DNA from: a virus | Reading direction: 5' to 3' (one strand) | Virus record (IMG/VR): IMGVR_UViG_3300022821_000014 | Location: 1-64,000 of that record | Length of the DNA stretch: 64,000 nucleotides | Shown: piece after piece, positions 567-46,247 of the stretch | How positions within the stretch are numbered: the stretch's first letter is position 1 | Layout of the letters: the number at the start of each line of letters is the position of its first letter | Made by a program: the position numbers and the translations under genes | The notes under the pieces: generated by a model | Seen by the model: the letters and a program-made list of their open reading frames with translations, nothing else | Told to the model about the DNA's origin: nothing | Databases searched by the model: none

Positions 567-3500
567 TTATCCTGTATTCCCACTTCCGCCTGAGGCTTCA
601 CCGCTGCTGTTTGCGTTACCTTCATTTTCACGAGCGACTGCGTCCCCAAGATGATCAAGTGCCGTTCCTACTGTGCTAATGAGCGAGCGATAGGTTCCCC
701 AGGCATCCGATGGTACAAAGGTGACACTTGTGCTGAAATCTCCTTGTGTGAACTTGTGTTCCACGCCTGTGATAGCGTAAAGGTTGTCAGCCGTAGTCCC
801 CGTCTGGAAATCAATGAAATAAGTTTGCATGAAGTTGAGAAGGGGATTCCCAACACAATCCATTGAAAGTTGTGTTGGGATAATTTGCATTGGAAGCCCA
901 CCAGAGTTTTCTCCGTTTGGCGTAATGGCCTCTTCACGTCGCATACTACGCAGAAGGTTGACTGTCGCAAGTTGTGAGTTCTGCATTGAAGCAAGGCTGG
1001 CTGCCTTCACTGTAGTTCCAGCTGCACCGTATATTATGTAAGGTGAATTTGCCATAATAAATTCCTTCAACTTCTGGGAACCTCCTACAACACGGTAAGT
1101 TCTTTCCGAGTTATTCGGCGTTTGCCTAGAATTGGCTTGTTCATTTCTTGTTTCTGATTCATATGGCAGCCACTCAATAAGTCCCATGCTGGTTGCAGAT
1201 TCAATAATGGTCGAAGCAATTTCTTGGTTGTTATCTACAACAGCCTGGTTTCCTCCTTCAAGATTTGGAAAACTGCCAATGGTACCAATTTGGTCTCGAC
1301 GTGTGGCCTGGATGAGTCGCCCAAGTGACTCGTAGGTTGTTGCTGCCTGGTCAAATACGTGGAGCCTTAATATTGTACGACCATTGGCCTCTTCAGAATC
1401 CTCACCATCATTCTGACCTACTTTCTCTGGAAGTGCCTCAACATATATCCCCACTTGAGGCATGCGGAAAGTTCCATCTGGAGTAACGCCCTGAAGCGCT
1501 CGTTCCATTCGAACACGGAACACAGCTGCATCATCACTGGCTGCGACTGTCGAACGGACTCGCCCCTCTTCATCTGGAAATGACAGACGATGCAAGGCCT
1601 CACCGTCGAGAGTCAAACCATAGGAATTAGCAGCTGGGTCGTCGACCAAGGTATCAGCAACAAAGTTCATGAACTGCTCAAGCGACATGACTGATGAACG
1701 TGAAATGTGTTCCAGGCGGTAACGTGCCAATTCATCAGCAAAATACTCGATATCCACAATGAAATTGGCTATGTTTAGTTTCGACGCTTGCCCTGCATAT
1801 TCGTTGAAAGGATAGAAGAACATCTGCACTTCGTCATAATTGCCAGTGTTAGCAAGCGGTTCTCCGACAAATAGCAGTAAAAGTTTGCCAAGGGAGCAAG
1901 GAAAGGTGTTAGAAATATTAGCTGTGAGTGCGCCACGTCTTGAGTCATTAAAGCGTCGCTGTGAGCTACGCTCACTTTGAGGTAGACTTCTACTTGAGAG
2001 ATATCTCTGCCCCCCGTTTCCATAACCTGGTAAAAGGAATGGGTCAGGGGAATCTTCAAGTTGTGTGACTTTGCGCCCAATTGATTCCTGAATGCTTCTT
2101 CTGAGCGTTGCGATAAGAGTCGGCTGACCAGACGGACCACTCGAACCCCCTCCACGGTGTTGGGTAACCTGATCACCATATAGTTCTTGAATGACTTCAT
2201 ATAGCCGACGAGCGCTCGGGTTTTCGCTTGTCCGATATGCTGTTCTAAATTGAGCCAGCGCTTCCCTTAGGTCGCTTCCGAGCACTGGGTTGTTTGTTGC
2301 ATCCTGAGCTGCATCAAGGATCTGGCGACCACGAATTTCAACTGAAGTAGTAGCTGTGCTTGCTGGGAATGCTCGTGCCCTCAACTCAGCAATTTGCCTT
2401 TGTAGTTCACCAATTTCACGAACCGTATTCGAAAAAGTTTCATTGTCGCTTGACATGAGTTCTGTGTCAAACTCTGAGGAGCCACGCATCGCAATGTTCA
2501 GTTTAATTGACACCTGTCCATCTGCTTCAAAGTTAAATGATGAGTTCACAACCATAAACTTTTCTTTGACACGCATGCCATCAATCAGATCACCATATGC
2601 GTTTTCTGAAACACTGATTTGACCGTCTGGGTGTGTCCAACCATACTCAATTGTAATTTCGTTGGTTCCATATAAGTCTGCTCGAATAAACTCCGCTACT
2701 TCTGGAAGGCGTGAACGGTCGTGAAGTAGAAGTGAGAGGCTGCCACGTTTAAAGCTCCTCAGACCTCTCGAAGGCTCAATTGTAATACTCAGATCAGACA
2801 AGGTCATCAGGGGACGAAACTTGTCAATGATTGGATTGGCTCTTGCTGAGAAGCTGGTATTGTCATCTGCATTTATCAAGGTTTGCGGTGCAGTAAACAA
2901 CTCCATACCTGCACGTGAATAGCGATCTGGTATTGGGTTTTCTTCCGTGGCATTCCTTGAGGAGATACTGGTCCCTTGGACCGTGTCGCCTTCAGCCATA
3001 ATGTCAAGTACTGAGCCTTCTTGTGGTATTACACCCCCGAGCAAAAACTTATTCAACGACAAGTTTTGAAGTCGACCAGATATATCGGACTTCGGCCCTC
3101 GTGGAAAGAAAAACTCAACATTAACATAAGGCATTGCACGTTGTAGTTCAACATTCGGAATTCCATTTAGAAAAATCGTTGCAGCTGCTGTATTTTGTGA
3201 TTCTAAGGTAACTCGTTTTGAATTGGAAAGGTATATCGAAAGTCCTGGGGCATCTTTGGTCGGCTGGTTAGGGGATGAATTAAGTCTTACATTCGAATCT
3301 CCACCTGGTGCGGAGTACCCTAGCATTTGACGAACTCCAGCAGTAGTAACTTCTCTGCGTTCTTCTTCGGATAACTCTGCGTTTCCAATAACAGCTTCTG
3401 GCCTGTAAAAAGTTGCATCTCCTTCATAGTGGACCTGGAGTAATTTTGCGAAGTCATTTTCCAGGACTTCACTTTGTTCAATTTGGGTATTGAAATTCTC

Positions 3501-16842: not shown

Positions 16843-17385
16843 ATGGGTTGTCATAAAAAAGTTGGCGAAAAGCATGTGAAGATCAAAGATGAGATCTCAG
16901 GTTATGACAAGGATGTCCTAATCAAAACATACCGACTCCCTAGCGGGGTCCTCGAAAACTTCTTTGTTGATGATAACAACGATTCAGTCCAAATACTAGC
17001 TATCTGTGAAGATGGTATGGTGCTCACTGTGAAACAGTTCCGTCCTGGCCTTGAGAAGGACTGTGTAGAGCTTCCAGGCGGCGGTTTGGAGCCTGGCGAA
17101 GATCCAAAAGAAGCGGCCGTTAGGGAACTTATAGAAGAAACTGGATTCCAAAGCGGAACCATGACTTTCCTTGGAAAGGTTCCATACAGCCCTTACTCAA
17201 CAGGATTTCGATATATGTTTGTCGCTGATGGTTGTGAACGTGTTAGCCGCTTGAACCTGGACGAGAATGAATTCCTAAAGGTCATCAAATGGCCAATGGA
17301 AAGGTTCCGTGAAGAGATCAAAAAAGGAGGTATCAGGGGAACTGATTGCGCCTATGCTGGCCTGGACCAACTAAACCTACTTTAG
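16843..17385 (+). CDS. NUDIX hydrolase (ADP-ribose pyrophosphatase-like)
   Basis: ELPGGGLEPGEDPKEAAVRELIEETG Nudix box; KQFRP; LDENEFL. Confidence 0.9.
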   Translation: MGCHKKVGEKHVKIKDEISGYDKDVLIKTYRLPSGVLENFFVDDNNDSVQILAICEDGMVLTVKQFRPGLEKDCVELPGGGLEPGEDPKEAAVRELIEETGFQSGTMTFLGKVPYSPYSTGFRYMFVADGCERVSRLNLDENEFLKVIKWPMERFREEIKKGGIRGTDCAYAGLDQLNLL

Positions 17386-17705
17386 TCGTCTATTGGTTGT
17401 CCTTCTAGGATCTTAACACGAATTACAGTTCTAAGGCTTGTGTGTTCCAATTCAGTAAGTCGTGTATCAGTGGCTGATTGCCAGTCACGACGGTTCTCAT
17501 TCACATCTTCTCTGAGACTTAGGATCTGTTGCCTTAGGCTCGTTGTCTCCCTCGTCTGGAGTTCAATTTGGTAACGTGTCTCAGCCTTAAACACAAAATA
17601 CCCGACTACTATTGTGCCTAAAGTTACTACAATTGGTAACCAGGTTTTGGTTATAGAGGCTATTTTATCTAGCGTAAGTGGTGATTCTTTTTTACCGTCT
17701 GGCAT
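17382..17705 (-). CDS. single-TM coiled-coil protein
   Basis: WLPIVVTLGTIVVGYFVF followed by a coiled coil; TACTTA 8 nt upstream of the ATG. Confidence 0.55.
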   Translation of the reverse strand: MPDGKKESPLTLDKIASITKTWLPIVVTLGTIVVGYFVFKAETRYQIELQTRETTSLRQQILSLREDVNENRRDWQSATDTRLTELEHTSLRTVIRVKILEGQPIDD

Positions 17706-17731
17706 AACATTCGTAAGTAGTGTCACGAATA

Positions 17732-17977
17732 TCAGGAATCTTCTTCACCTGAATCTGGCCTGGTAACAACTCTATCCGAACTTCCACTGCTGTAAGTGTA
17801 ATCCAGGAAAAACAATAGATCAGATGGTAACGTCATCGGTTGGACTGATACCATCTCGTTGACAAAATTACTTGGGAAGATTCGTCTGGAGAATGGGAAG
17901 GTGCGACTAGACTTGTATCTGGCAATCAGCTTACGGAAGCCTTTCACCGTCAACTTTAGTTCGTCGCAATCATTCAT
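17732..17977 (-). CDS. mini-protein: shared leader helix + major-capsid-protein (Gol-region)-like fragment
   Basis: LTVKGFRKLIARYKS then FPFSRRIFPSNFVNEMVSVQPMTLPSDLLFFLDYTY, matching the gp23 pattern RR..P.......VQPM..P.G..F. Confidence 0.7.
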   Translation of the reverse strand: MNDCDELKLTVKGFRKLIARYKSSRTFPFSRRIFPSNFVNEMVSVQPMTLPSDLLFFLDYTYSSGSSDRVVTRPDSGEEDS

Positions 17978-18046
17978 ATTGCCTTGGCCCAACCTCGACT
18001 CCTGCCTGTAGAATCAGTGTAATTTTGAGGTCTCATTTTGTATGGC

Positions 18047-18335
18047 CTACGTAAATCTTCGAAGTTTACTTGGCACAACTGCTCTTTGTTTACCAGACAT
18101 GGCTCGGACATCGGGTGTGTTATGGTGAGCCCCCTTTGAAGGAACCTGTGAACCACCACCCTTGTTAACTTCAACAGCTTTACGGATTTCCTTGTCAATT
18201 CTTTCGATGAGCCAACGTCGGTACCGCACAGGCATGTTGTAGTATGTCCTGAAATCTAGTCCAAAGTAGTACCCAAGCAAGAAGAAGGGTTCAAGGAAAA
18301 CTAACTCTCTATGTTCTGGCGTTAGGCCAAAAAAA
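18047..18335 (-). CDS. tail assembly chaperone frameshift extension (GT-like)
   Basis: FFGLTPEHRELVFLEPFFLLGYYFGLDFRTYYNMPVRYRRWLIERI overlaps the chaperone end at a T7 run. Confidence 0.7.
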
Positions 18336-19217
18336 CGTGGGGCCCATGGGAAGAGCAATGTCTGCCACATGGTCACAATTCTGGCACATGAATTCTACGG
18401 TCATGTCCACACCTGGTTCATTCTCATCGATGTATTGTCGGAGAGCAAGAGAGTCACGTGCAGGCATATACTGCACAAATTTGGAAATCTGACCTCTGTC
18501 GGTCACGCCATCAATCTCGACGATGGAAGATAGGAGCCTTGTCGTGATTAGGTTTTCGTTCTGGATGCCCTTCTTCTTTTTGACTTCAAGTGCCTGAAGG
18601 ATCTTTTCCTCTTCTTCACCCGTGAGGAACCTGAATCCTATACGCCTTTTGGTCATTGGAAGGTCGAAGTAGAAAAGGTTGGCAAAGTCGTTACCAGGAG
18701 TAAGTTTTAATGGCTTGATGTCGAGGGACGCAAGGTCAACCTGTAGTTCATTTTGTACGCTGCAAGACGGGCAGTTGAATACAGGGTTGTACTCACGGCC
18801 ATAGCCCGAGACTCGGATTGCAACCATGAGTGCATTTCGGTCACCAGAAATCATCTCATTTACATTGACAGACTTATCCAGAAGACAAGACTTGATCAGC
18901 TCAGTAATAACCGTGCCCTTTTTGATGTAAGCACGGCTCATAAGAATATCTTCTTCCCGTGCAGTCATTGCTCGGAACTCGACACGAGTTTTGGCGTGCA
19001 GAGCGTGACCTGCTTCGTATATACGACCTGCTGAAGGCAGTGGTACAGCGTCAACAGGGATATCGAGGCCAAGCTCTTGTTTGGCATACTCCTGCCTGCT
19101 AAGTGGTTGCAATTCGCCCCCACTAGCATCCTCTGCCGCCTGTTTGGCGGCGAACACAGAGTTGCGTAGTTCACGCCTCTCATCTTCAGTCATCGGTTGT
19201 TGTTGGCCTTCGGACAT
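18309..19217 (-). CDS. tail/baseplate assembly chaperone (T4 gp26-like)
   Basis: VPLPSAG..Y, MTAREEDIL, GDRNALMVAIRVSGYG, two CxxC pairs, ends FFWP. Confidence 0.8.
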   Translation of the reverse strand: MSEGQQQPMTEDERRELRNSVFAAKQAAEDASGGELQPLSRQEYAKQELGLDIPVDAVPLPSAGRIYEAGHALHAKTRVEFRAMTAREEDILMSRAYIKKGTVITELIKSCLLDKSVNVNEMISGDRNALMVAIRVSGYGREYNPVFNCPSCSVQNELQVDLASLDIKPLKLTPGNDFANLFYFDLPMTKRRIGFRFLTGEEEEKILQALEVKKKKGIQNENLITTRLLSSIVEIDGVTDRGQISKFVQYMPARDSLALRQYIDENEPGVDMTVEFMCQNCDHVADIALPMGPTFFWPNART

Positions 19218-19330
19218 TAATTTAACTCCTTGTTACATTGTTGTGGGCAAATCATATGTATGTCTGACCTATTTTTCTCAACACTCATTTATTCACCTCA
19301 ACAAATGACAATCTTGCCATAAAACTCAGG

Positions 19331-19654
19331 TTACAGAGTCTTCTGAGTGTACTGGTTTTTCAGGTGTACGCCCTTTGTGAACTGTGCGTTTGAATCACGA
19401 TACTCCATGACCGCAGCAATGAGCCTCCTGGCTTCTCCGACTGTCATTGGAGCATCTGGCTTTGCCTTTGTCGAACTCACAAGTATTGGAAATACCATGA
19501 TTGGTGACACCATAAGTGGCACATAGGGTGCGTACACGTAACCTGTACTTAAATAAGAATATCCCTTTCGGGTCTGTAAATAGATGTCACGTATTTTGAG
19601 TTCAACTAGGTACTTGGCAATAATCTTTCGAATGTCACCTATCTTCAAAACCAA
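19331..19654 (-). CDS. mini-protein: two leader helices + major-capsid C-terminal-like fragment
   Basis: LKIGDIRKIIAKYL...RKGYSYLSTGYVYAPYVPLMVSP...MTVGEARRLIAAVMEY; G..YAPYVPL is a gp23 hallmark. Confidence 0.7.
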   Translation of the reverse strand: MVLKIGDIRKIIAKYLVELKIRDIYLQTRKGYSYLSTGYVYAPYVPLMVSPIMVFPILVSSTKAKPDAPMTVGEARRLIAAVMEYRDSNAQFTKGVHLKNQYTQKTL

Positions 19655-19799
19655 GCTTACTTTCTATCAACGACCAAAGAATTTTTTGGTCAATCAACTT
19701 GTCAATATTCTGGGCTGCTCTACGAAAGCACCTCATGGTTTCTGGTTCAACAGCGTGTAGGTAACCAGCTATTTTTATCCTCATTGCATTTTTTGTCAT
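19635..19799 (-). CDS. mini-protein with shared leader helix (54 aa)
   Basis: MTKNAMRIKIAGYLHAVEPETMRCFRRAAQNIDKLIDQKILWSLIESKLGFEDR; manual translation. Confidence 0.55.
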   Translation of the reverse strand: MTKNAMRIKIAGYLHAVEPETMRCFRRAAQNIDKLIDQKILWSLIESKLGFEDR

Positions 19800-19821
19800 C
19801 GATTACCAAATTCTAGAATCA

Positions 19822-19950
19822 TTATAGGTTCCTAAAGTTTCGAATTATCTTAGGGCCTAGGCCGAGCAATGTTTCTAAATGACGGACGTTGATTGCACTT
19901 CTCTCTTCAAGGTGCAATGCGATAATTTTTCGAGCTTCGTTGATTGACAT
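19822..19950 (-). CDS. mini-protein with shared leader helix (42 aa)
   Basis: MSINEARKIIALHLEERSAINVRHLETLLGLGPKIIRNFRNL; TAATG coupling to the FkbM gene stop. Confidence 0.6.
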   Translation of the reverse strand: MSINEARKIIALHLEERSAINVRHLETLLGLGPKIIRNFRNL

Positions 19951-20597
19951 TATGTACCTCTGAGATATAGGGCATCACCCCAAGTGCGCTCAGGCGCAGC
20001 TGTAAGCAGACGTGTGAAATTGTACTCTAGAAGAAAGTCATCTAGTTCTTCAATGAGACAGCAGTCTTTGTAAACTTCCTCGAAGTTCACCTTAGTATAG
20101 ATCGCTCTAAAATCAAAGCGTTCAAATAACGAACCAAACCCCTTGAGGACTTTCAACTCGGCTCCTTGAACATCAATATTGATAAAGTCATAAAGATCCA
20201 GGTCAATCTGTGCGATGTTTTCTCGGACCAGGCTATCGAAGGTTTTTGTTTTGACAGCCTGAGCTTCTACGTACCGAACGTCTGGATATGCTGTTGCGTG
20301 TGTACCAAGTTCTAATAGTGAAGACGACTTTCCATCGTTGGCAATGTTGAACTCAACCATTTCATCCTTTACGTCAGAAATAACAGTACAAAAATACAGG
20401 GAATTGATGGGTACTTTGTGTGTCTTATCATACAAGGGTTTCATCATTTCTTTGTTCGCCTCGATCCACAAGACGTTCTTTACACCAGCTTGAGCGTATG
20501 CCTCTGCTTCCTCACCATGGTATGCTCCAAAGTGGACCACACCCTTGAACGGCCTATCAACATTGGCCTTGATACACTCTTCCATGGAGATGAACAT
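19950..20597 (-). CDS. FkbM-family methyltransferase
   Basis: HFGAYHGEE, WIEAN, SSSLL, NIDVQGAELKVLKG, WGDALY. Confidence 0.9.
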   Translation of the reverse strand: MFISMEECIKANVDRPFKGVVHFGAYHGEEAEAYAQAGVKNVLWIEANKEMMKPLYDKTHKVPINSLYFCTVISDVKDEMVEFNIANDGKSSSLLELGTHATAYPDVRYVEAQAVKTKTFDSLVRENIAQIDLDLYDFINIDVQGAELKVLKGFGSLFERFDFRAIYTKVNFEEVYKDCCLIEELDDFLLEYNFTRLLTAAPERTWGDALYLRGT

Positions 20598-39422: not shown

Positions 39423-39928
39423 TTATATCCTGTGGAACCAAGTCCACCATCTCCCCGTTCTGTATCTTCAAGAGTCTCTACCGTGTGAATAGAAGGTTGC
39501 TCAACACGAGCGATTACCATTTGTGCGATGCGGTCCCCAGAAGCAATAGCAAATTCTTCTTGGCTATGGTTAATAAGGATCACTTTTAATTCACCACGAT
39601 AATCAGAATCAATTGTCCCTGGAGAGTTGAGGACGGTAATACCATATTTTGCTGCTAGGCCGCTACGTGGTCTTATTTGAGCCTCAAAGCCTTTGGGCAA
39701 TGACATGGCTAGTCCTGTAGATACAATAGCAGAGCGTCCTGGAGGCAGTACTACGGCTTCTGTGGCACTCAGATCCATTCCAGCTGCTTCTGAGGATTTA
39801 TACTCGGGTATCTTTGCCCAGCGGTTAAGTCTTTTGAAACAAATAGCTATCTCTTTTCCTAGAAGAGCTTTTCTGGGCGGTTCGACCCATCGTGGGTCAT
39901 CAGTCTTGTAATCTTCTTTGTACTTCAT
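39419..39928 (-). CDS. dut: dUTPase
   Basis: [38 protein letters not shown]. Confidence 0.95.
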
Positions 39929-40389
39929 TTGTCTTGTTCCATGTCTAGAATGATAATAGGTGTATAGATGCCTTCGTCGGTCACATAATACATTCCTCCT
40001 TCTACAATTGTCTTGTCAAAATAAACCCGAACGGTTTCCATCTCATCAACAACTGAGTCTTGAAAATTCAATTCTCCATGTGTGTACTTACCTTTGTCTA
40101 CAAGATTGTCGTATGCAAACTTTGCACGGAAGCAGAGAAGGTGTTCCAGGATCAAATGCGGTCCCCTAGAAGTTACAATAACTCCTTTGCCGCTGTTCTC
40201 ACGAGAAATATTCCTAATCAATTCTGCCAAACCTTTGTTCCATTGAAATTTGTCAAAAAAGAACGGCGCTCCCGCTTTTATAGCTTCTTCTGGGGGAATT
40301 GGTTCGCTGGTGTCTTGATCAATATATACACCTGGCTTCTTCGACCAGAATTTCAATTTGCCCGACTTCTCTTTTAACTCGTACTCCAT
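39925..40389 (-). CDS. possible degenerate major-capsid A-domain paralogue
   Basis: [16 protein letters not shown]...[14 protein letters not shown]...VIVTS...[10 protein letters not shown]; similar to the adjacent ORF. Confidence 0.45.
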
Positions 40390-40405
40390 ACTACCTCTTC
40401 AACCA

Positions 40406-40813
40406 CTAGCCTATTATGACCAATTCAACATGTCCACTATCCTTAATCGACAGGAACAAACTTTCTGTTTTAAACTTGTCAATCTTATACAGTGGAATTT
40501 CTGTACCAGCTAGAATCAAGCTGCCAAAAACAACTTCGTCTGTGTTACAAGGACTAATCTCTGGTGGTCTAAAATTAATGAGAACTTCCATGATTACGCT
40601 AACCAAACTTTCAGGGTCGAGTGAGATCGCCTTGACAATTCCAAGCTCATCTTGTATTGACATTATTAGTGGCATGAGGGTATGATACCACTCGTATACA
40701 CTGTACCGACCTGTACTCCCACTATTCCAGTCATCTGATAACACATCACCTGTTTTGGGGTCTACTAGCTTTCCTGGCAATCTTGACCAATATCTTCTGG
40801 TGGCGAGTTTCAC
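40406..40813 (-). CDS. possible major-capsid A-domain paralogue
   Basis: YWSRLPGKLVDPKTG...SVYEWYHTLMPLI...VSVIMEVLINFR...VFGSL. Confidence 0.55.
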   Translation of the reverse strand: MKLATRRYWSRLPGKLVDPKTGDVLSDDWNSGSTGRYSVYEWYHTLMPLIMSIQDELGIVKAISLDPESLVSVIMEVLINFRPPEISPCNTDEVVFGSLILAGTEIPLYKIDKFKTESLFLSIKDSGHVELVIIG

Positions 40814-41772
40814 TTTCCATGCGCCTTTAGTGCCTCAGCCTCTTCAACGGAATCCTTGTTTACACCCGCAAAAGTCAAATGTTCCTTTGCATCACGTTGC
40901 ATGACCAATGCATCGGTATATAGTGCGTCAACGTACTCTTGGTAAGCAGGGTTGTAAAGAACCCTGTTGAAATTAGGCTTGTAGAATTTTTCCTCAACAA
41001 GAATTTCACCCGTACTCTGGTCAGTCACAGTGAATGTTTTCCAAGCAGCTGTGCCAGCGACGAGGATCGATTTCCCGTTATGAACTACACCGTAAGCATC
41101 CTTATCTTGTTTGATAACTTCCGTACAATGTGCACGAAACAAGTCAAAAACTTCTTCATGTTCAACAACGCCGACGCCGAAGATAATCTGGAACTCACAA
41201 GTGCGGAATGGCCGAGCTACACGGTTCTTGATCGTCTTGGCTTTCACCTTAATGCCAATGACGTTCCCTGCATTATCTTTAATTTGCTGCTGCCCAGTAG
41301 AAGAAATACGAACACGGACTGAACTTGCGTAAGGGATAGCCATCCCACCAGGTGTTGTAGTGTTGTGGTTAATAAACCCTTCAGCAATATAGTTGTGAGT
41401 GTCTTCCACTTCGCAATCAACAACTTGTATGGGGTGTTGTACTTGTTCAGCACCAATGTAGTCTTCAAGACGAATATACTCGCCATCAACAAAGATCTTA
41501 TGGTCTTTGGTGCCGTGAAGAGTATTTGCTTGGTAGTGCTCGTCTGCATTTTGTTTGACGACAAACGTTTTCAGTGGCTTCCAAACTTCCTGCTTGGATT
41601 CGTGATCATATGAGAGGATTTCATATTTTTCATGTTCTATATTGTAGATTTCTGGCGTATTTAGATCTTCTATACCTATACGTTTTGCCAATTCACGAAA
41701 TGTGATTTCCTCTTCCACGAACTGACGTTCATGCCTTGTTTCAAGATTGTGTTTTTTTATTTCGGTTTCCAT
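40810..41772 (-). CDS. recA: RecA C-terminal half fused to split-intein C fragment (~137 aa)
   Basis: ...HGTKDH...VVDCEVEDTHNYIAEGFINHN|TTTPGGMAIPYASSVRVRI...KNRVARPFR; start uncertain (41772 or 41859). Confidence 0.88.
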   Translation of the reverse strand: METEIKKHNLETRHERQFVEEEITFRELAKRIGIEDLNTPEIYNIEHEKYEILSYDHESKQEVWKPLKTFVVKQNADEHYQANTLHGTKDHKIFVDGEYIRLEDYIGAEQVQHPIQVVDCEVEDTHNYIAEGFINHNTTTPGGMAIPYASSVRVRISSTGQQQIKDNAGNVIGIKVKAKTIKNRVARPFRTCEFQIIFGVGVVEHEEVFDLFRAHCTEVIKQDKDAYGVVHNGKSILVAGTAAWKTFTVTDQSTGEILVEEKFYKPNFNRVLYNPAYQEYVDALYTDALVMQRDAKEHLTFAGVNKDSVEEAEALKAHGK

Positions 41773-42586
41773 AAGTTTCTGTCTTTCGGTGGCAAGCTTC
41801 ACACAATGTTCTTCCGTTTGAGGTTCTCCAAAGAGGTTCATATCTTTTTGCCTCTTCAACAGATTTGATATTACCTTCTTCTAAAAGCAAACAAAAAGGA
41901 TAAATGTGATCTACGTGCAATTTTTCTGTTCTATCGCATCTGATGCATTTGTGCTCATCACGTTTCAGAGCACTCTGCCTCCATTTTCGATATGCGTAAC
42001 TTTTCCTAATCAAACTAGCGGTTTTCGTTAAACCACTTTTCCAATTTGGATTTTTTTCTTTTCTTTTTGGGTTTGCTTTATTGTATCTTATTATCCAAGA
42101 ACGCAATTTTTTCCTGTGTTCCTCGGTCGGCTGATATCTTGGACTTGGTATAGCTTTTATTGGATAAAACTGGCTAAGCTTGTCTATAATTCGTTTTGTT
42201 TTTCTTAGTTTGAGATTTAGTTTATTGGCTATGTGCCCGTAAGGTACTTCCGCCTGGCACAATGCAATTATTTGTTCATAATCTTCTGGTGATAAATCCT
42301 GGGGCAGGTATTTGATCTGCTTTTTAGCGCACTGATCCCGAACATATCTGCGATAAACCCTATCGGAAATTCCTAGTTTAGTCTTAATCCACCTGGGCGG
42401 GACGAACCTTTTATCCCAATAACCGTGAAGTTATTTAACTTGTTCCTCCGAAAGGATAACCTTCTGAGCTTCTCCAATGTTTCTTCGCCGCTCTTTCGAA
42501 AAGACCTTTCCCGTATTCGCTGCTGCGATTTTCCGCCTTGTTTCTTTTGAGTGTGCATACCTTTTTTTGTTCTTTGCTGGTTTCAT
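41741..42586 (-). pseudogene. NUMOD3/HNH homing endonuclease with internal TAA
   Basis: HSKETRRKI (NUMOD3)...VK*LHGYW...RDEHKCIRC...HVDHI...NGRTLCEACH in a single frame; stop at 42431-42433. Confidence 0.8.
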
Positions 42587-44346: not shown

Positions 44347-45234
44347 TTATTTGGTTGCGCAAACATCATGCTTGCGTGTCATGTAGAATTTACCCATGGT
44401 TTTTGGGTAAACATACTTTTTAATTTTCGTGCTAAGATTATTCCCACTGTATTTCAACTCATAACATTGGGCAGTCTTTATTTTGTACGGTCTTTTATTG
44501 GGAATGCCAGTATTCTCGGTTAACTGGCGTTGTAACTCTTTCAAGAAATCTTGTGAGGCAGACGCAATTTGCAGTCCTAATGTTGGCGTAACACCTTCTC
44601 TGTTTCTAATAAACCAGCAACCATCTCCATCAATAAACCCTCTGATATAATGTGGGTAAAAAGATTCTTTCAGATTGGGCCAGGACAAATTGTGAGTTTT
44701 TTGTGGTGTCACCCCATAACAAGATAAATCAGACTTTAATCTTCTGCTGCTGACTTCAAAAGTCGAATAAGGTCCGTACGTTCTGACCTTATTTTCTGCC
44801 TCTAATTCTTCTCTAAGGTATTCTAACAAATATGCATCTTCATTTTTCAGTGTCAATTTAATTGCATTGCGTTTCGTTGAAACACATCCATCGGCTGCCA
44901 ACAATCCTAGAAAGTAAGCTTTGGAAGGTGTGTTAATATGTGAAAAATATTTTTGATTGACCTTGTTGGACCTGGGTCCAGGTGAACGTAATTTACGGTT
45001 GTGTTTTGTCAGTAACCATCTGACCCAGGATAAACTCTTGTTGAAATATTTGGCTGTCTTAGACACACCTTCGACAAGGTATTTTTTATACACCTCATCA
45101 GGATTATAAGCCATTCGTTGTCTGTTCCATTCCTTTCTATAAGTATGGTTCATTGGGTCGAAATTGACCAATTCTAAGCGTCCGAGATGAAGATTTATCT
45201 TCAATGATTTCAAGTACTTACGCACTGCAAGCAA
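44347..45234 (-). CDS. LAGLIDADG homing endonuclease
   Basis: AYFLGLLAADGCV and HYIRGFIDGDGCW; start uncertain. Confidence 0.88.
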   Translation of the reverse strand: MLAVRKYLKSLKINLHLGRLELVNFDPMNHTYRKEWNRQRMAYNPDEVYKKYLVEGVSKTAKYFNKSLSWVRWLLTKHNRKLRSPGPRSNKVNQKYFSHINTPSKAYFLGLLAADGCVSTKRNAIKLTLKNEDAYLLEYLREELEAENKVRTYGPYSTFEVSSRRLKSDLSCYGVTPQKTHNLSWPNLKESFYPHYIRGFIDGDGCWFIRNREGVTPTLGLQIASASQDFLKELQRQLTENTGIPNKRPYKIKTAQCYELKYSGNNLSTKIKKYVYPKTMGKFYMTRKHDVCATK

Positions 45235-45259: not shown

Positions 45260-45409
45260 TTAAATTGACGCAGAATTGAGGGAAGTTTTACTACTTATGT
45301 GCAAGTTTGTAAGTTTGAGTACCGCTTCTTTAATAGCTACATTCAGTGTGAGTTTGACTACCACCAGACGATACTTCATGATAAGTTTTTGTGCTTCCTT
45401 CACTGTCAT
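45260..45409 (-). CDS. mini-protein with shared leader helix (49 aa)
   Basis: MTVKEAQKLIMKYRLVVVKLTLNVAIKEAVLKLTNLHISSKTSLNSASI; TGATG coupling. Confidence 0.6.
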   Translation of the reverse strand: MTVKEAQKLIMKYRLVVVKLTLNVAIKEAVLKLTNLHISSKTSLNSASI

Positions 45410-45558
45410 CACAATTTCCTCTTCCACTCAGGCCATGAGGCAACCTGTTGCTTCGCTTTTTCGCTAGCGGAAATGATATCCTTGAGATAATATACCCTGC
45501 GCCAGGCGACCCTTGACTTATATCGGGCTATCAACTTCTTACAATCAGCGGGGTTCAT
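45409..45558 (-). CDS. mini-protein with shared leader helix (49 aa)
   Basis: MNPADCKKLIARYKSRVAWRRVYYLKDIISASEKAKQQVASWPEWKRKL. Confidence 0.6.
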   Translation of the reverse strand: MNPADCKKLIARYKSRVAWRRVYYLKDIISASEKAKQQVASWPEWKRKL

Positions 45559-45646
45559 ACATTTTTACCATATTGCTGGCTGCCTTGACAAGTTCCCAGT
45601 ATCTGGTGTAGTACGTGATCAGCTTTCTACAGTCAGTCTTAGTCAA
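45545..45646 (-). CDS. mini-protein with shared leader helix (33 aa)
   Basis: TTG start; MTKTDCRKLITYYTRYWELVKAASNMVKMYEPR. Confidence 0.5.
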   Translation of the reverse strand: MTKTDCRKLITYYTRYWELVKAASNMVKMYEPR

Positions 45647-46247
45647 TAACGGAAGTCTTACCAGACGCCTGCATGCAAGCAACTCGAACGGCTGTCTGAA
45701 GAACAACGGACAACATTGGAGATTCGTACAACTCTGAGGAGTACATTTGGTTCATGTGCCCAAGACTAGAAATTGCGTGCACTTCTTCTTCTGTGAGAAG
45801 AACTCTGGAGGAGTTTAACCACCAAAGCGAACGTTGAGTTGGATGCATCTTTGGGAGATTGGTATTCAACTCGTACATCATGCCCTTGTTGCGGTGCCAG
45901 TCACTTTCCTGCTCGACATAGTGGTCTTCTTCCTGATTGCCGATTTTACCTAGGTCGTGAAAAAGGCACGTAACAATCAAACTATCTGCTGATAACTTGG
46001 ACCCGAAAACCCTGTTAAGGTCTTTCGCAAGCTTGAGTACATTCAAGCTGTACTCAACAAGCCCACCTGGGTAGGCACCGACGAATTCAAGACGTGTAGA
46101 GGCTGGCGCAGCTGCCAGCCGTTCTTTTACTTCATCACAGAGTGAAAGAAGTTCAGTTTTCACATCTTCGTTTTTAATGCGACCAACTAGGCTCATATAA
46201 AGTTCCCAATTGGATTCAAGTCTTGCGACCAATTTATCGTGGCTCAT
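45639..46247 (-). CDS. HD-domain protein
   Basis: APAS...AYPGGLVEYSLNV...LFHDLGKIG; several family His residues appear substituted. Confidence 0.75.
   Translation of the reverse strand: MSHDKLVARLESNWELYMSLVGRIKNEDVKTELLSLCDEVKERLAAAPASTRLEFVGAYPGGLVEYSLNVLKLAKDLNRVFGSKLSADSLIVTCLFHDLGKIGNQEEDHYVEQESDWHRNKGMMYELNTNLPKMHPTQRSLWWLNSSRVLLTEEEVHAISSLGHMNQMYSSELYESPMLSVVLQTAVRVACMQASGKTSVID

What the first reader, a model, noticed from the sequence alone, without database searches (positions are those of the whole stretch)
17732..19950. Mini-genes pairing a common leader helix with isolated fragments of a gp23-type major capsid protein
Seen: tiny ORFs flank the tail-chaperone gene, and each begins with a related helix followed by a different short payload. 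The helices are LTVKGFRKLIARYK, LKIGDIRKIIAKYL, MTVGEARRLIAAVM, MTKNAMRIKIAGYL and MSINEARKIIALHL. Two payloads match gp23-family hallmarks: FSRRIFPSNFVNEMVSVQPMTLPSDLLFFLDY (17732-17977) and RKGYSYLSTGYVYAPYVPLMVSP (19331-19654). Weaker matches are AAQNIDKLIDQKIL (backbone-helix EIDREIL-like) and FTKGVHLKNQYTQK (KGV..RY..K-like). Inference: these are not pieces of a decayed capsid gene, because they are out of order, translationally coupled and individually capped with the same leader. They look like a purpose-built library of capsid epitopes. They could be decoys for capsid-sensing host defences, dominant-negative poisons of a competing phage's capsid assembly, or assembly modulators.
Basis: partly seen in the sequence, partly recalled or inferred. 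Interest (0 to 1): 0.88.

Follow-up and report, generated by a model that had tools for sequence, protein, structure and literature searches.

The report
Helix-tagged capsid-excerpt mini-genes in giant phage
An uncultured giant T4-like phage carries small, conserved genes that each join a shared short helix to a copy of one highly conserved stretch of the head-shell (major capsid) protein; they belong to a widespread, undescribed family whose job, probably molecular mimicry of unassembled capsid protein, is untested.

Summary
The core observation holds. On the minus strand around a baseplate-hub gene (not a tail chaperone), ORF 17732-17977 copies residues ~78-128 of T4-type major capsid protein (MCP): Pfam Gp23 above cut-off, and E 2.5e-16 against a lineage MCP profile. 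ORF 19331-19654 copies MCP ~545-590 (E 8e-10; hhalign 98%). ORF 19635-19799 probably carries a spine-helix piece (hhalign 67%, through an orthologue). The fourth claimed match and ORF 19822-19950 show no MCP similarity. One listed "leader" is an internal helix of the 107-aa protein.

The leader helix is real: eight copies sit in two clusters, and nothing else in the 91-kb record resembles it.

Intact orthologues keep the same synteny in four related contigs. Identical residues mostly use different codons, which indicates selection on the protein. The N-terminal excerpt type belongs to a large unnamed metagenomic family of 60-140 aa proteins with its own signature (VFPS, against VFGG in MCPs).

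Function is untested. I favour competitive mimicry of unassembled MCP, as a defence decoy or an assembly/exclusion factor. Earlier AI notes of this scan describe similar capsid-excerpt mini-genes in other phage genomes. I found no paper describing them.

The parts
17732..17977 (-). 81-aa mini-gene: leader helix plus a copy of MCP residues ~78-128. This is the N-terminal region and the P-domain strand just before I-domain linker 1, the T4 Gol-region equivalent.
   Evidence: Pfam Gp23 30.8 bits, above the 24.4 cut-off. MCP HMM E 2.5e-16, positions 84-128. Aligns to T4 gp23 100-131. Orthologues at L002:5008-5214, L003:2077-2277, L172:6001-6249 and L199:2203-2607. AF2 gives mean pLDDT 67, with only the leader helix confident.
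19331..19654 (-). 107-aa mini-gene (TTG start): leader helix, a copy of MCP ~545-590 (C-terminal strands with the YAPYVP motif), a second internal leader-like helix and an unrelated tail.
   Evidence: MCP HMM E 8e-10, positions 545-583. hhalign Prob 98%, E 5e-14. Orthologues at L002:3538-3720, L172:3582-3887 and L199:778-942. The tail shows no MCP similarity.
19635..19799 (-). 54-aa mini-gene: leader helix plus a probable eroded copy of the MCP spine-helix segment (the EIDREIL region).
   Evidence: Orthologue L172:3431-3592, E 3e-6. The two-sequence profile against the MCP profile gives Prob 67%, E 5e-5, residues 15-48 against MCP 397-429. Alone it is not significant.
19822..19950 (-). 42-aa mini-gene with the leader helix and no detectable capsid payload (weak HTH-like look). 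Its ATG overlaps the methyltransferase stop.
   Evidence: Leader HMM 22.9 bits. No MCP similarity. No match to the L172 ORF in the same position. Pfam HTH_Mga E 0.043 only.
18309..19217 (-). Baseplate hub gene (T4 gp26-like) that the mini-genes flank.
   Evidence: PF12322 E 3e-17 and phrog_150 E 1.7e-21. 592 relatives found in IMG/VR.
18047..18376 (-). Conserved ~95-aa domain in the +1 frame of the hub gene. It is probably joined to the hub by a +1 frameshift at the T7 run 18329-18335.
   Evidence: Conserved in 79 of 80 related loci. It is +1 to the hub in 77 of 78, with a conserved junction TTT(T/C)TTTGGCCT and often no upstream start codon. Fused in frame to a second hub copy in L003 and L172.
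17382..17726 (-). Conserved downstream neighbour: a small membrane-helix plus coiled-coil protein.
   Evidence: Orthologues in L002 (49% identity) and L172. phrog_1863 E 0.0011.
45260..45706 (-). Second cluster of three overlapping micro-ORFs (55, 49 and 53 aa) that carry the same leader helix and no capsid payload, beside a LAGLIDADG endonuclease gene.
   Evidence: Found through the leader pattern. ORFs listed. Leader HMM 24-25 bits each. LAGLIDADG at 44347-45234.
39925..40813 (-). Two tandem, diverged paralogues (154 and 135 aa) resembling the C-terminal third of the MCP. They are further capsid-derived small proteins of the same genome and have no leader helix.
   Evidence: MCP HMM E 2e-5 (positions 424-520) and E 1.4e-6 (429-482), genome-wide. 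26% identical to each other, E 1e-4. No Pfam or PHROG family.

Best explanation
These are real, selected mini-protein genes built from excerpts of a T4-type major capsid protein (MCP). Each excerpt follows a short amphipathic helix that this phage uses on at least eight tiny proteins.

The excerpts are among the MCP's most conserved stretches: the N-terminal region with the first P-domain strand (the T4 Gol-region equivalent), the spine helix, and the C-terminal strands. Two of them overlap parts that are poorly ordered in a lone subunit.

I think they act as competitive mimics. A free peptide with the same invariant residues as the MCP occupies whatever partner normally binds that stretch of newly made, unassembled MCP. 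The shared helix would be a common handle.

My preferred target is a host factor that recognises unassembled MCP: a capsid-sensing defence protein, or an EF-Tu-linked, Lit-type system. That makes the mini-proteins accessory counter-defence decoys.

Shown: homology, conservation, protein-level selection, family breadth and the shared helix. Inferred: expression, binding, the target and the benefit. I put about 0.6 on the general claim (functional mimic proteins rather than debris) and about 0.3-0.35 on the specific decoy reading. The confidence given for this entry (0.4) lies between the two.
For: Homology:
- Pfam Gp23 above cut-off.
- The lineage MCP HMM finds only these ORFs, plus two other capsid-like small ORFs, in the whole record.
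- hhalign Prob 98% and 67%.

Selection:
- Intact orthologues in the same synteny in L002, L003, L172 and L199.
- Nucleotide identity is only 50-67%, yet 10-15 of 16-29 identical residues use different codons.

Family:
- 358 hits in an exhaustive search. 50 of the top 150 cluster representatives have neither the MCP prodomain nor the I-domain and end within 60 aa of the motif.
- 1072 short proteins match the family profile. This count mixes true mini-proteins with truncated MCP gene calls from tiny contigs. Some lie on contigs of 285-461 kb. All that are named are called 'hypothetical protein'.
- Own signature: Pro/Ser where MCPs have Gly-Gly, with the Q-P-M..P....F..D positions invariant as in MCPs. 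This points to a partner shared by MCP and mini-protein, or to the MCP itself.

Accessory character:
- Among ~245 fetched hub or MCP neighbourhoods, only this clade has them. Neighbours are auxiliary genes: methyltransferase, NUDIX, ThyX.

Structure:
- T4 gp23 aa 66-105 and 132-160 are unresolved in the unexpanded head and become ordered through neighbour contacts (PMC9546572).
- The AF2 model of a related MCP has pLDDT below 50 over 62-89, 91-112, 124-140 and 592-619.
- The 81-aa protein alone is not a confident fold.

Literature:
- The Gol region is a 29-residue stretch in the first quarter of gp23. It is described as gp23's most conserved region, binds EF-Tu and triggers Lit (PMC3014915).
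- MCPs are sensed by several defence families, and Avs7 incorporates EF-Tu (PMC13581612).
Against: - No expression data. No promoter or terminator signal above background, and no T4-type late promoter.
- The window copy of the 107-aa ORF has only a TTG start.
- A free Gol-like peptide would be expected to activate, not block, a Lit-type protease. Known structural sensors such as Avs7 read the folded MCP shape, not a linear peptide (PMC13581612).
- The genes sit on the same strand as a structural gene, which fits assembly as well as defence.
- The spine-helix excerpt is eroded or lost in some lineages, so not every member is under strong constraint.
- The phage's own MCP is not on the record, so self versus non-self similarity could not be measured.
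- No co-fold could be run.
Confidence: 0.4

Rival explanations
1. They are assembly modulators or inter-phage weapons. The excerpts bind the complementary surfaces of MCP subunits. Either they hold the phage's own MCP back from premature polymerisation, like a strand-donating chaperone, or they poison the capsid assembly of a co-infecting T4-like phage.
For: - Several different MCP segments are copied, not a single epitope.
- The N-terminal segment is ordered only through neighbour contacts in T4 heads (PMC9546572) and is low-confidence in the monomer model.
- The genes lie in one same-strand string with a baseplate gene and no terminator between them.
- The mini-protein motif stays close to the consensus of a wide MCP group.
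Against: - Sister clades with the same MCP type and hub gene lack them, so they are not core assembly factors.
- Self-poisoning would be costly.
- No binding test was possible.
Confidence: 0.22
2. They are leftovers of a duplicated MCP gene that was broken up, perhaps by the homing endonucleases abundant in this genome, and they persist without function.
For: - The upstream fragments are collinear with the MCP in L172 (345-395, 393-426, 559-587).
- The set erodes differently in each lineage.
- The window's 107-aa ORF has only a TTG start.
- The genome holds other genes in pieces and many endonuclease genes.
- T4 itself keeps old partial duplicates (the alt.-1/alt.-2 annotation).
Against: - The ORFs are intact in five contigs despite 50-67% nucleotide identity, with residues kept through codon changes.
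- The N-terminal excerpt lies out of order, downstream of the hub.
- Each piece has its own start and helix.
- The excerpt type has a family-wide signature distinct from MCPs, and dozens of divergent members end at the same point.
Confidence: 0.12
3. The shared helix is a head-loading tag, like the T4 capsid targeting sequence. The mini-proteins would be packed into the prohead, trimmed by the prohead protease, and delivered with the DNA into the next cell.
For: - One common N-terminal helix sits on eight small proteins with unrelated payloads.
- L-x-E-type motifs follow the helix in two ORFs, as read in the sequence.
- Earlier AI notes on this genome propose head-loading tags on other proteins. 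I did not check those notes.
Against: - The helix HMM matches nothing else in the genome above 6 bits.
- It shows no significant likeness to the MCP prodomain.
- Most copies lack a clear cleavage motif.
- In the 107-aa protein a second copy of the helix is internal.
Confidence: 0.1

Closest known systems
Gol region of T4 gp23 in the Gol / Lit / EF-Tu exclusion system (prophage e14)
   Same: The 81-aa ORF aligns to T4 gp23 100-131. This lies in the first quarter of gp23 and in its most conserved block, which is how review PMC3014915 describes the 29-residue Gol region. A short linear stretch of MCP that is biologically active on its own is the only precedent for a capsid excerpt with a function.
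   Different: Gol is part of the full-length capsid protein, not a separate gene. It triggers a host suicide protease and does not serve the phage. I could not check the exact Gol coordinates in a held paper (about 93-122, from memory and from an earlier AI note). EF-Tu binding by the mini-protein is untested.
T4-type major capsid and vertex proteins gp23/gp24 (Pfam PF07068, HK97 fold with insertion domain)
   Same: The excerpts are clearly homologous to segments of this family. Related giant phages have one or two full-length copies of 630-650 aa.
   Different: The mini-proteins keep about 35-50 residues of roughly 640. They lack the prodomain, the I-domain and the A-domain, and they carry an unrelated N-terminal helix or a small beta-rich domain. 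They cannot form a shell subunit.
Capsid targeting sequence of T4 internal proteins and other shared N-terminal tags
   Same: A short common N-terminal helix precedes unrelated payloads on a set of small proteins.
   Different: No significant sequence likeness was shown. A cleavage motif is present in only some copies. Loading and cleavage are untested.
Genes in pieces and old partial duplications in T4-like phages (for example T4 alt.-1/alt.-2; split genes next to homing endonucleases)
   Same: Fragments of a larger gene survive as small ORFs in a genome rich in homing endonucleases, with a RecA/UvsX gene in pieces. The upstream fragments are collinear.
   Different: The pieces do not add up to a capsid protein. 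Each has its own leader. They are conserved across divergent genomes, and one type forms a large independent family.

Membership tests
Pfam PF07068 Gp23 (T4-type major capsid protein) | Sequence match above the curated gathering score | tested here: met
   81-aa ORF: 30.8 bits against a cut-off of 24.4. The 107-aa ORF is below the cut-off (12.4 bits) but significant against a lineage-specific MCP profile.
Pfam PF07068 Gp23 (T4-type major capsid protein) | Full HK97-type subunit with P, A and I domains, about 500-650 aa | tested here: not met
   The matches cover only profile positions 10-56 of 376, or 84-128 and 545-583 of 620. The ORFs are 81 and 107 aa. They are excerpts, not capsid proteins.
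Metagenomic 'N-terminal capsid-excerpt' mini-protein family (unnamed) | A protein under about 140 aa with a non-MCP N-terminal part, then the conserved ~45-aa motif around VSVQPM, ending within about 20-60 aa after it | tested here: met
   The 81-aa ORF aligns with 22 such proteins (A1). 50 of the top 150 cluster representatives share this architecture.
Metagenomic 'N-terminal capsid-excerpt' mini-protein family (unnamed) | Family signature Pro-Ser, rather than the MCP's Gly-Gly, 8 and 7 residues before VSVQPM | tested here: met
   The window ORF reads F-P-S at these positions. Mini-proteins have Pro in 62% at position -8, while MCPs have Gly or Ala in 98-100%.
Gol / Lit / EF-Tu system | Peptide homologous to the Gol stretch of gp23 | tested here: inconclusive
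   It aligns to T4 gp23 100-131 at 34% identity. The exact Gol coordinates could not be verified in a held paper. The review gives only '29 residues, first quarter, most conserved region' (PMC3014915).
Gol / Lit / EF-Tu system | Binds EF-Tu domains II-III and licenses cleavage by a Lit-type protease | not testable with these tools
T4-type capsid targeting sequence | N-terminal tag followed by a prohead-protease site (L/I-x-E), removed after loading | tested here: inconclusive
   The helix is shared by 8 ORFs. An L-x-E-type motif follows it in only two of them, as read. The helix shows no significant match to the MCP prodomain HMM. Loading cannot be tested here.
Pseudogene remnants of one MCP copy | Fragments collinear with the parent gene | tested here: inconclusive
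   The upstream fragments are collinear (L172: 345-395, 393-426, 559-587), but the N-terminal excerpt lies downstream of the hub.
Pseudogene remnants of one MCP copy | No constraint on reading frame or residues | tested here: not met
   The ORFs are intact in five contigs. Most conserved residues are kept through synonymous codon changes at 50-67% nucleotide identity.

The most novel reading that the evidence does not exclude
Giant T4-like phages carry a modular 'capsid-excerpt' system. Small proteins join a common handle helix to copies of several of the capsid protein's most conserved segments: the Gol-region equivalent, the spine helix and the C-terminal strands. They are expressed to pre-empt host sensors of unassembled capsid protein, or to sabotage the capsid assembly of competing phages. 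This would be a new class of protein-mimic conflict genes made from the virus's own structural protein.
Probability: 0.3. Interest if true: 0.9.

Novelty: categorically new. Interest (0 to 1): 0.78.

Why it matters
The major capsid protein is the phage component that bacterial immunity senses most often (Lit, CapRel, Avs7/8/10, TIR systems). No phage counter-measure built from the capsid protein itself is known.

A widespread, selected family of free-standing capsid excerpts would give a concrete, testable candidate. The test is to express the mini-protein and ask whether it binds EF-Tu, a sensor or the MCP, and whether it changes defence or co-infection outcomes.

If instead they tune or poison assembly, they would be natural peptide inhibitors that map the contact segments of HK97-type shells. 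Either way, they show that very small ORFs in giant-phage genomes can be real, ancient genes that annotation pipelines leave unnamed.

Tried and rejected
DNA-level searches
- Megablast of the region against GenBank phages found nothing.
- tblastn of the 81-aa ORF there found only full-length MCP genes.

Structure and sequence databases
- phmmer of both excerpt ORFs against PDB sequences found nothing.
- The word-based protein search with the 107-aa and 154-aa ORFs found only themselves.
- Pattern scans for relatives of P0009 and of the 154-aa ORF in IMG/VR found none.
- The two family scans of IMG/VR returned almost only full-length MCPs (78 of 82 and 70 of 74 hits). Apart from this clade's own contigs they added no genomic contexts for mini-proteins.

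Ideas about the leader helix, all rejected
- The leader derives from the MCP prodomain: the HMM is not significant, E 0.1-10.
- The leader derives from the MCP's RKLRAKW stretch, suggested by BLAST scraps: the leader HMM scores MCPs below shuffled controls.

Claimed payloads rejected
- The tail of the 107-aa ORF and the 42-aa ORF against the MCP HMM gave negative scores.
- The 42-aa ORF against the L172 ORF in the same position gave no alignment.

Expression signals
- Sigma-70-like promoters are at the background rate and there are no terminators.
- The T4 late-promoter motif is absent.

Structure prediction and other look-ups
- AF2 of the 81-aa protein gave low confidence, so no fold search was run on it.
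- The ESM Atlas returned only Gp23-labelled clusters.

- I therefore ran no test of mini-protein pairing or partner binding, and I had no access to the 285-kb contig that holds this phage's own MCP.

Literature
- Searches for capsid-fragment decoys or truncated Gp23 small proteins found no description.
Full report
WHAT IS THERE

The window is the first 64 kb of a 91-kb IMG/VR viral record that CheckV rates about 20% complete. Identical copies of two of its small proteins occur on a contig of 284,850 bp, so the phage is a giant one. The nearest GenBank relatives of its hub protein are uncultured 484-595 kb phages and large myoviruses.

The region 17.3-20.6 kb is one same-strand (minus) gene string:
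- FkbM-type methyltransferase, 19950-20597.
- 42-aa ORF, 19822-19950.
- 54-aa ORF, 19635-19799.
- 107-aa ORF, 19331-19654.
- gp26-like baseplate hub, 18309-19217 (PF12322, phrog_150).
- A conserved ~95-aa domain in the +1 frame, 18047-18376.
- 81-aa ORF, 17732-17977.
- A small membrane/coiled-coil protein, 17382-17726.

The central gene is therefore a baseplate hub, not a tail chaperone.

CAPSID HOMOLOGY

The 81-aa ORF passes Pfam's own threshold for Gp23: 30.8 bits against 24.4, E 2.7e-7, profile positions 10-56. The 91-kb record holds no full-length MCP. I therefore took full-length MCPs (630-650 aa) from related giant-phage contigs.
- The 81-aa ORF is 55-63% identical to their residues ~85-123 and aligns to T4 gp23 100-131.
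- The 107-aa ORF is 70% identical over 27 residues to MCP ~569-598, and aligns to T4 gp23 424-456.

I built an HMM from 44 such MCPs (A3) and searched all 3,517 open frames of at least 15 aa in the whole record. It gave four significant hits only:
- the 81-aa ORF, E 2.5e-16, positions 84-128;
- the 107-aa ORF, E 8e-10, positions 545-583;
- two tandem ORFs 20 kb away, 40406-40813 and 39925-40389, E 1.4e-6 and 2e-5. These resemble the C-terminal third of the MCP.

Profile-profile comparison gives Prob 98%, E 5e-14 for the 107-aa family.

However, the 54-aa ORF has a clear orthologue in L172 (E 3e-6) that preserves the EIDR-IL motif better. The pair aligns to MCP 397-429, the spine helix, at Prob 67%, E 5e-5.

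The fourth claimed match (the tail of the 107-aa ORF) and the 42-aa ORF show nothing.

CONSERVATION AND SELECTION

A scan with the hub protein returned 80 related loci. A later scan with a family member added two more. Four contigs share the window's arrangement: L002 (same contig as L176), L003, L172 and L199. The arrangement is methyltransferase, C-terminal-excerpt ORF, hub (a second hub copy in two of them), +1-frame domain, N-terminal-excerpt ORF, then the membrane protein or NUDIX.

All the excerpt ORFs are intact. All but the window's 107-aa ORF start with ATG.

L172 has the richest set. It holds three consecutive leader-plus-excerpt ORFs upstream of the hub, covering MCP profile positions 345-395, 393-426 and 559-587, and the N-terminal excerpt (84-137) downstream.

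Between orthologues, nucleotide identity in the motif regions is only 50-67%. Of the residues that stay identical, roughly 50-85% are encoded by different codons. That is the pattern of selection on the protein, not of recent copying or neutral decay.

The set is not static:
- L002 has no spine-helix ORF, and its C-terminal-excerpt ORF lacks the second helix.
- In the window, the 54-aa ORF keeps only a weak spine-helix likeness compared with its L172 orthologue.
- The window has no counterpart of L172's first (345-395) excerpt.

Among about 245 hub or MCP neighbourhoods fetched from other related phages, no other clade has such ORFs.

A WIDESPREAD FAMILY

An exhaustive phmmer search of 1.84 billion cluster representatives with the 81-aa ORF gave 358 hits at E of 0.001 or better. 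Many are MCPs or truncated MCP gene calls.

Fifty of the top 150 match neither the MCP prodomain nor the I-domain, start with Met and end within 60 residues after the motif. They show at least two architectures: a short N-terminal helix (60-90 aa), or a small beta-rich domain (about 100-140 aa) in front of the same ~45-residue motif.

A profile search of 5.8 billion clusters found 1,072 short proteins.
- This count again mixes true mini-proteins with MCP fragments from tiny contigs.
- Some lie on contigs of 285-461 kb.
- All are unnamed or called 'hypothetical protein'.

The mini-proteins have their own signature. They carry Pro (62%) then Ser/Gly/Asn where MCPs have Gly-Gly. The MCP's invariant Q-P-M, P, F and D positions are kept at 96-100%. 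The family is thus an old lineage of its own, not a series of fresh copies of each phage's MCP.

GenBank phages gave only MCP hits. The C-terminal-excerpt type was found only in this clade.

THE LEADER HELIX

The pattern R[KR][LI]IA occurs five times in all six frames of the 91 kb. Four of them are in these ORFs. Shuffled sequence gives a mean of 0.82 and a maximum of 3.

A looser pattern led to a second cluster of three overlapping micro-ORFs at 45260-45706, beside a LAGLIDADG endonuclease gene.

An HMM of the eight helices scores them at 20-25 bits. That figure is circular, because they are the training set. The next best frame in the genome scores only 6 bits. The window-trained HMM also picks out the leader of an L172 ORF at E 4e-5.

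AF2 models the leader of the 81-aa protein as a helix with pLDDT about 81. The rest is uncertain: mean pLDDT 67, pTM 0.23.

I could not show that the helix derives from any part of the MCP.

WHICH PARTS OF THE CAPSID PROTEIN ARE COPIED

In T4 gp23, residues 66-105 and 132-160 (I-domain linker 1) are unresolved in the unexpanded head and become ordered through contacts with neighbours. The spine helix belongs to the P domain (PMC9546572). The 81-aa excerpt (T4 100-131) therefore spans the end of that flexible N-terminal region and the strand that leads into linker 1.

The AF2 model of a related MCP places a helix at 81-98 and a strand at 111-120. It has pLDDT below 50 across 62-89, 91-112, 124-140 and 592-619.

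Review PMC3014915 describes the Gol function as a 29-residue stretch in the first quarter of gp23. It calls this gp23's most conserved region, says it binds EF-Tu domains II-III, and says it licenses the Lit protease. The 81-aa excerpt matches that description. I could not verify the exact Gol coordinates in a held paper.

HOW IT MOST LIKELY WORKS

Shown: these are conserved, selected protein-coding genes that display MCP excerpts behind a shared helix.

Inferred: the same residues are invariant in MCPs and in mini-proteins that lack the rest of the fold. Those residues therefore probably contact something outside the excerpt, either a partner common to both or the MCP itself. That argues for competitive mimicry.

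The patchy, clade-specific distribution, the fast-changing N-terminal parts and the auxiliary-gene neighbourhood look like conflict genes rather than core assembly factors. MCPs are prime targets of bacterial sensors, one of which also recruits EF-Tu (PMC13581612).

I therefore favour a decoy or blocker of host factors that recognise unassembled MCP, at about 0.3-0.35. Against this:
- A Gol-like peptide would be expected to activate a Lit-type protease.
- Avs-type sensors read the folded shape of the MCP.

The rivals are:
- an assembly modulator or an inter-phage poison, 0.22;
- decaying remnants of a broken MCP copy, 0.12, given the collinearity of the upstream pieces and the lineage-specific erosion;
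- head-loaded cargo, with the helix as a loading tag, 0.10.

COMPARISON, NOVELTY AND LIMITS

The nearest known things are the Gol region of T4 gp23, the MCP family itself, T4's capsid targeting sequence, and genes in pieces or old partial duplicates in T4-like phages. None of them is a free-standing, conserved gene family made of capsid excerpts.

Literature searches found no description.

Earlier AI notes of this scan report similar capsid-excerpt mini-genes with other leaders in several other uncultured T4-like phage genomes, and they note this ORF and the second helix cluster in this genome. Those notes are unchecked leads. My own searches independently show the family's breadth.

No expression or binding evidence exists. 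The phage's own MCP was out of reach.

Noticed in passing
window 18309-18376, slip site 18327-18335 (minus strand); L002-L081: The baseplate hub gene ends five codons after a run of seven T followed by GG. A conserved ~95-aa domain continues from exactly there in the +1 frame. In 77 of 78 related loci the downstream ORF is +1 to the hub, with the junction TTT(T/C)TTTGGCCT and often no possible start codon. This suggests a conserved programmed +1 frameshift resembling the prfB CUU-UGA-C site. L003:1032-2075 and L172:4934-5983 encode the fusion in frame as a second hub copy, and L199:1927-2202 has its own ATG. I found no paper on it.
   Followed up: partly
window 39925-40389 and 40406-40813 (minus strand): Two tandem, diverged paralogues (154 and 135 aa, 26% identical) resemble the C-terminal third of the major capsid protein (HMM positions ~424-520). 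They have no Pfam or PHROG family and no leader helix. They lie between a RecA/UvsX fragment and dUTPase. No relatives were found by word or pattern searches.
   Followed up: partly
window 45260-45706 (minus strand), next to 44347-45234: Three overlapping micro-ORFs (55, 49 and 53 aa) carry the same leader helix as the capsid-excerpt genes but no capsid payload. They lie directly upstream of a LAGLIDADG homing endonuclease gene.
   Followed up: partly
window 40810-42262 (minus strand): The RecA/UvsX gene is in pieces. The 349-aa ORF holds only the C-terminal RecA part after an intein-like start (weak Intein_splicing hit), and an HNH endonuclease gene overlaps its upstream end.
   Followed up: no
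L002:2206-2919 and L172:1403-2212: A GIY-YIG-type homing endonuclease gene sits between the 285-aa gene and the methyltransferase in two relatives but not in the window. L172 also has an extra ORF (2826-3170) between the methyltransferase and the first excerpt ORF.
   Followed up: no
L082/L087 (G005:C1:176275-180147): A complete 293-kb relative with terminal repeats carries two tandem full-length MCP paralogues (640 and 631 aa) and no excerpt mini-genes.
   Followed up: no
L115:385-555 and L116:6064-6681: In two related contigs, MCP-homologous sequence lies in short open frames of 57 and 206 aa. These are probably frameshifted or mis-assembled MCP genes rather than mini-genes.
   Followed up: no
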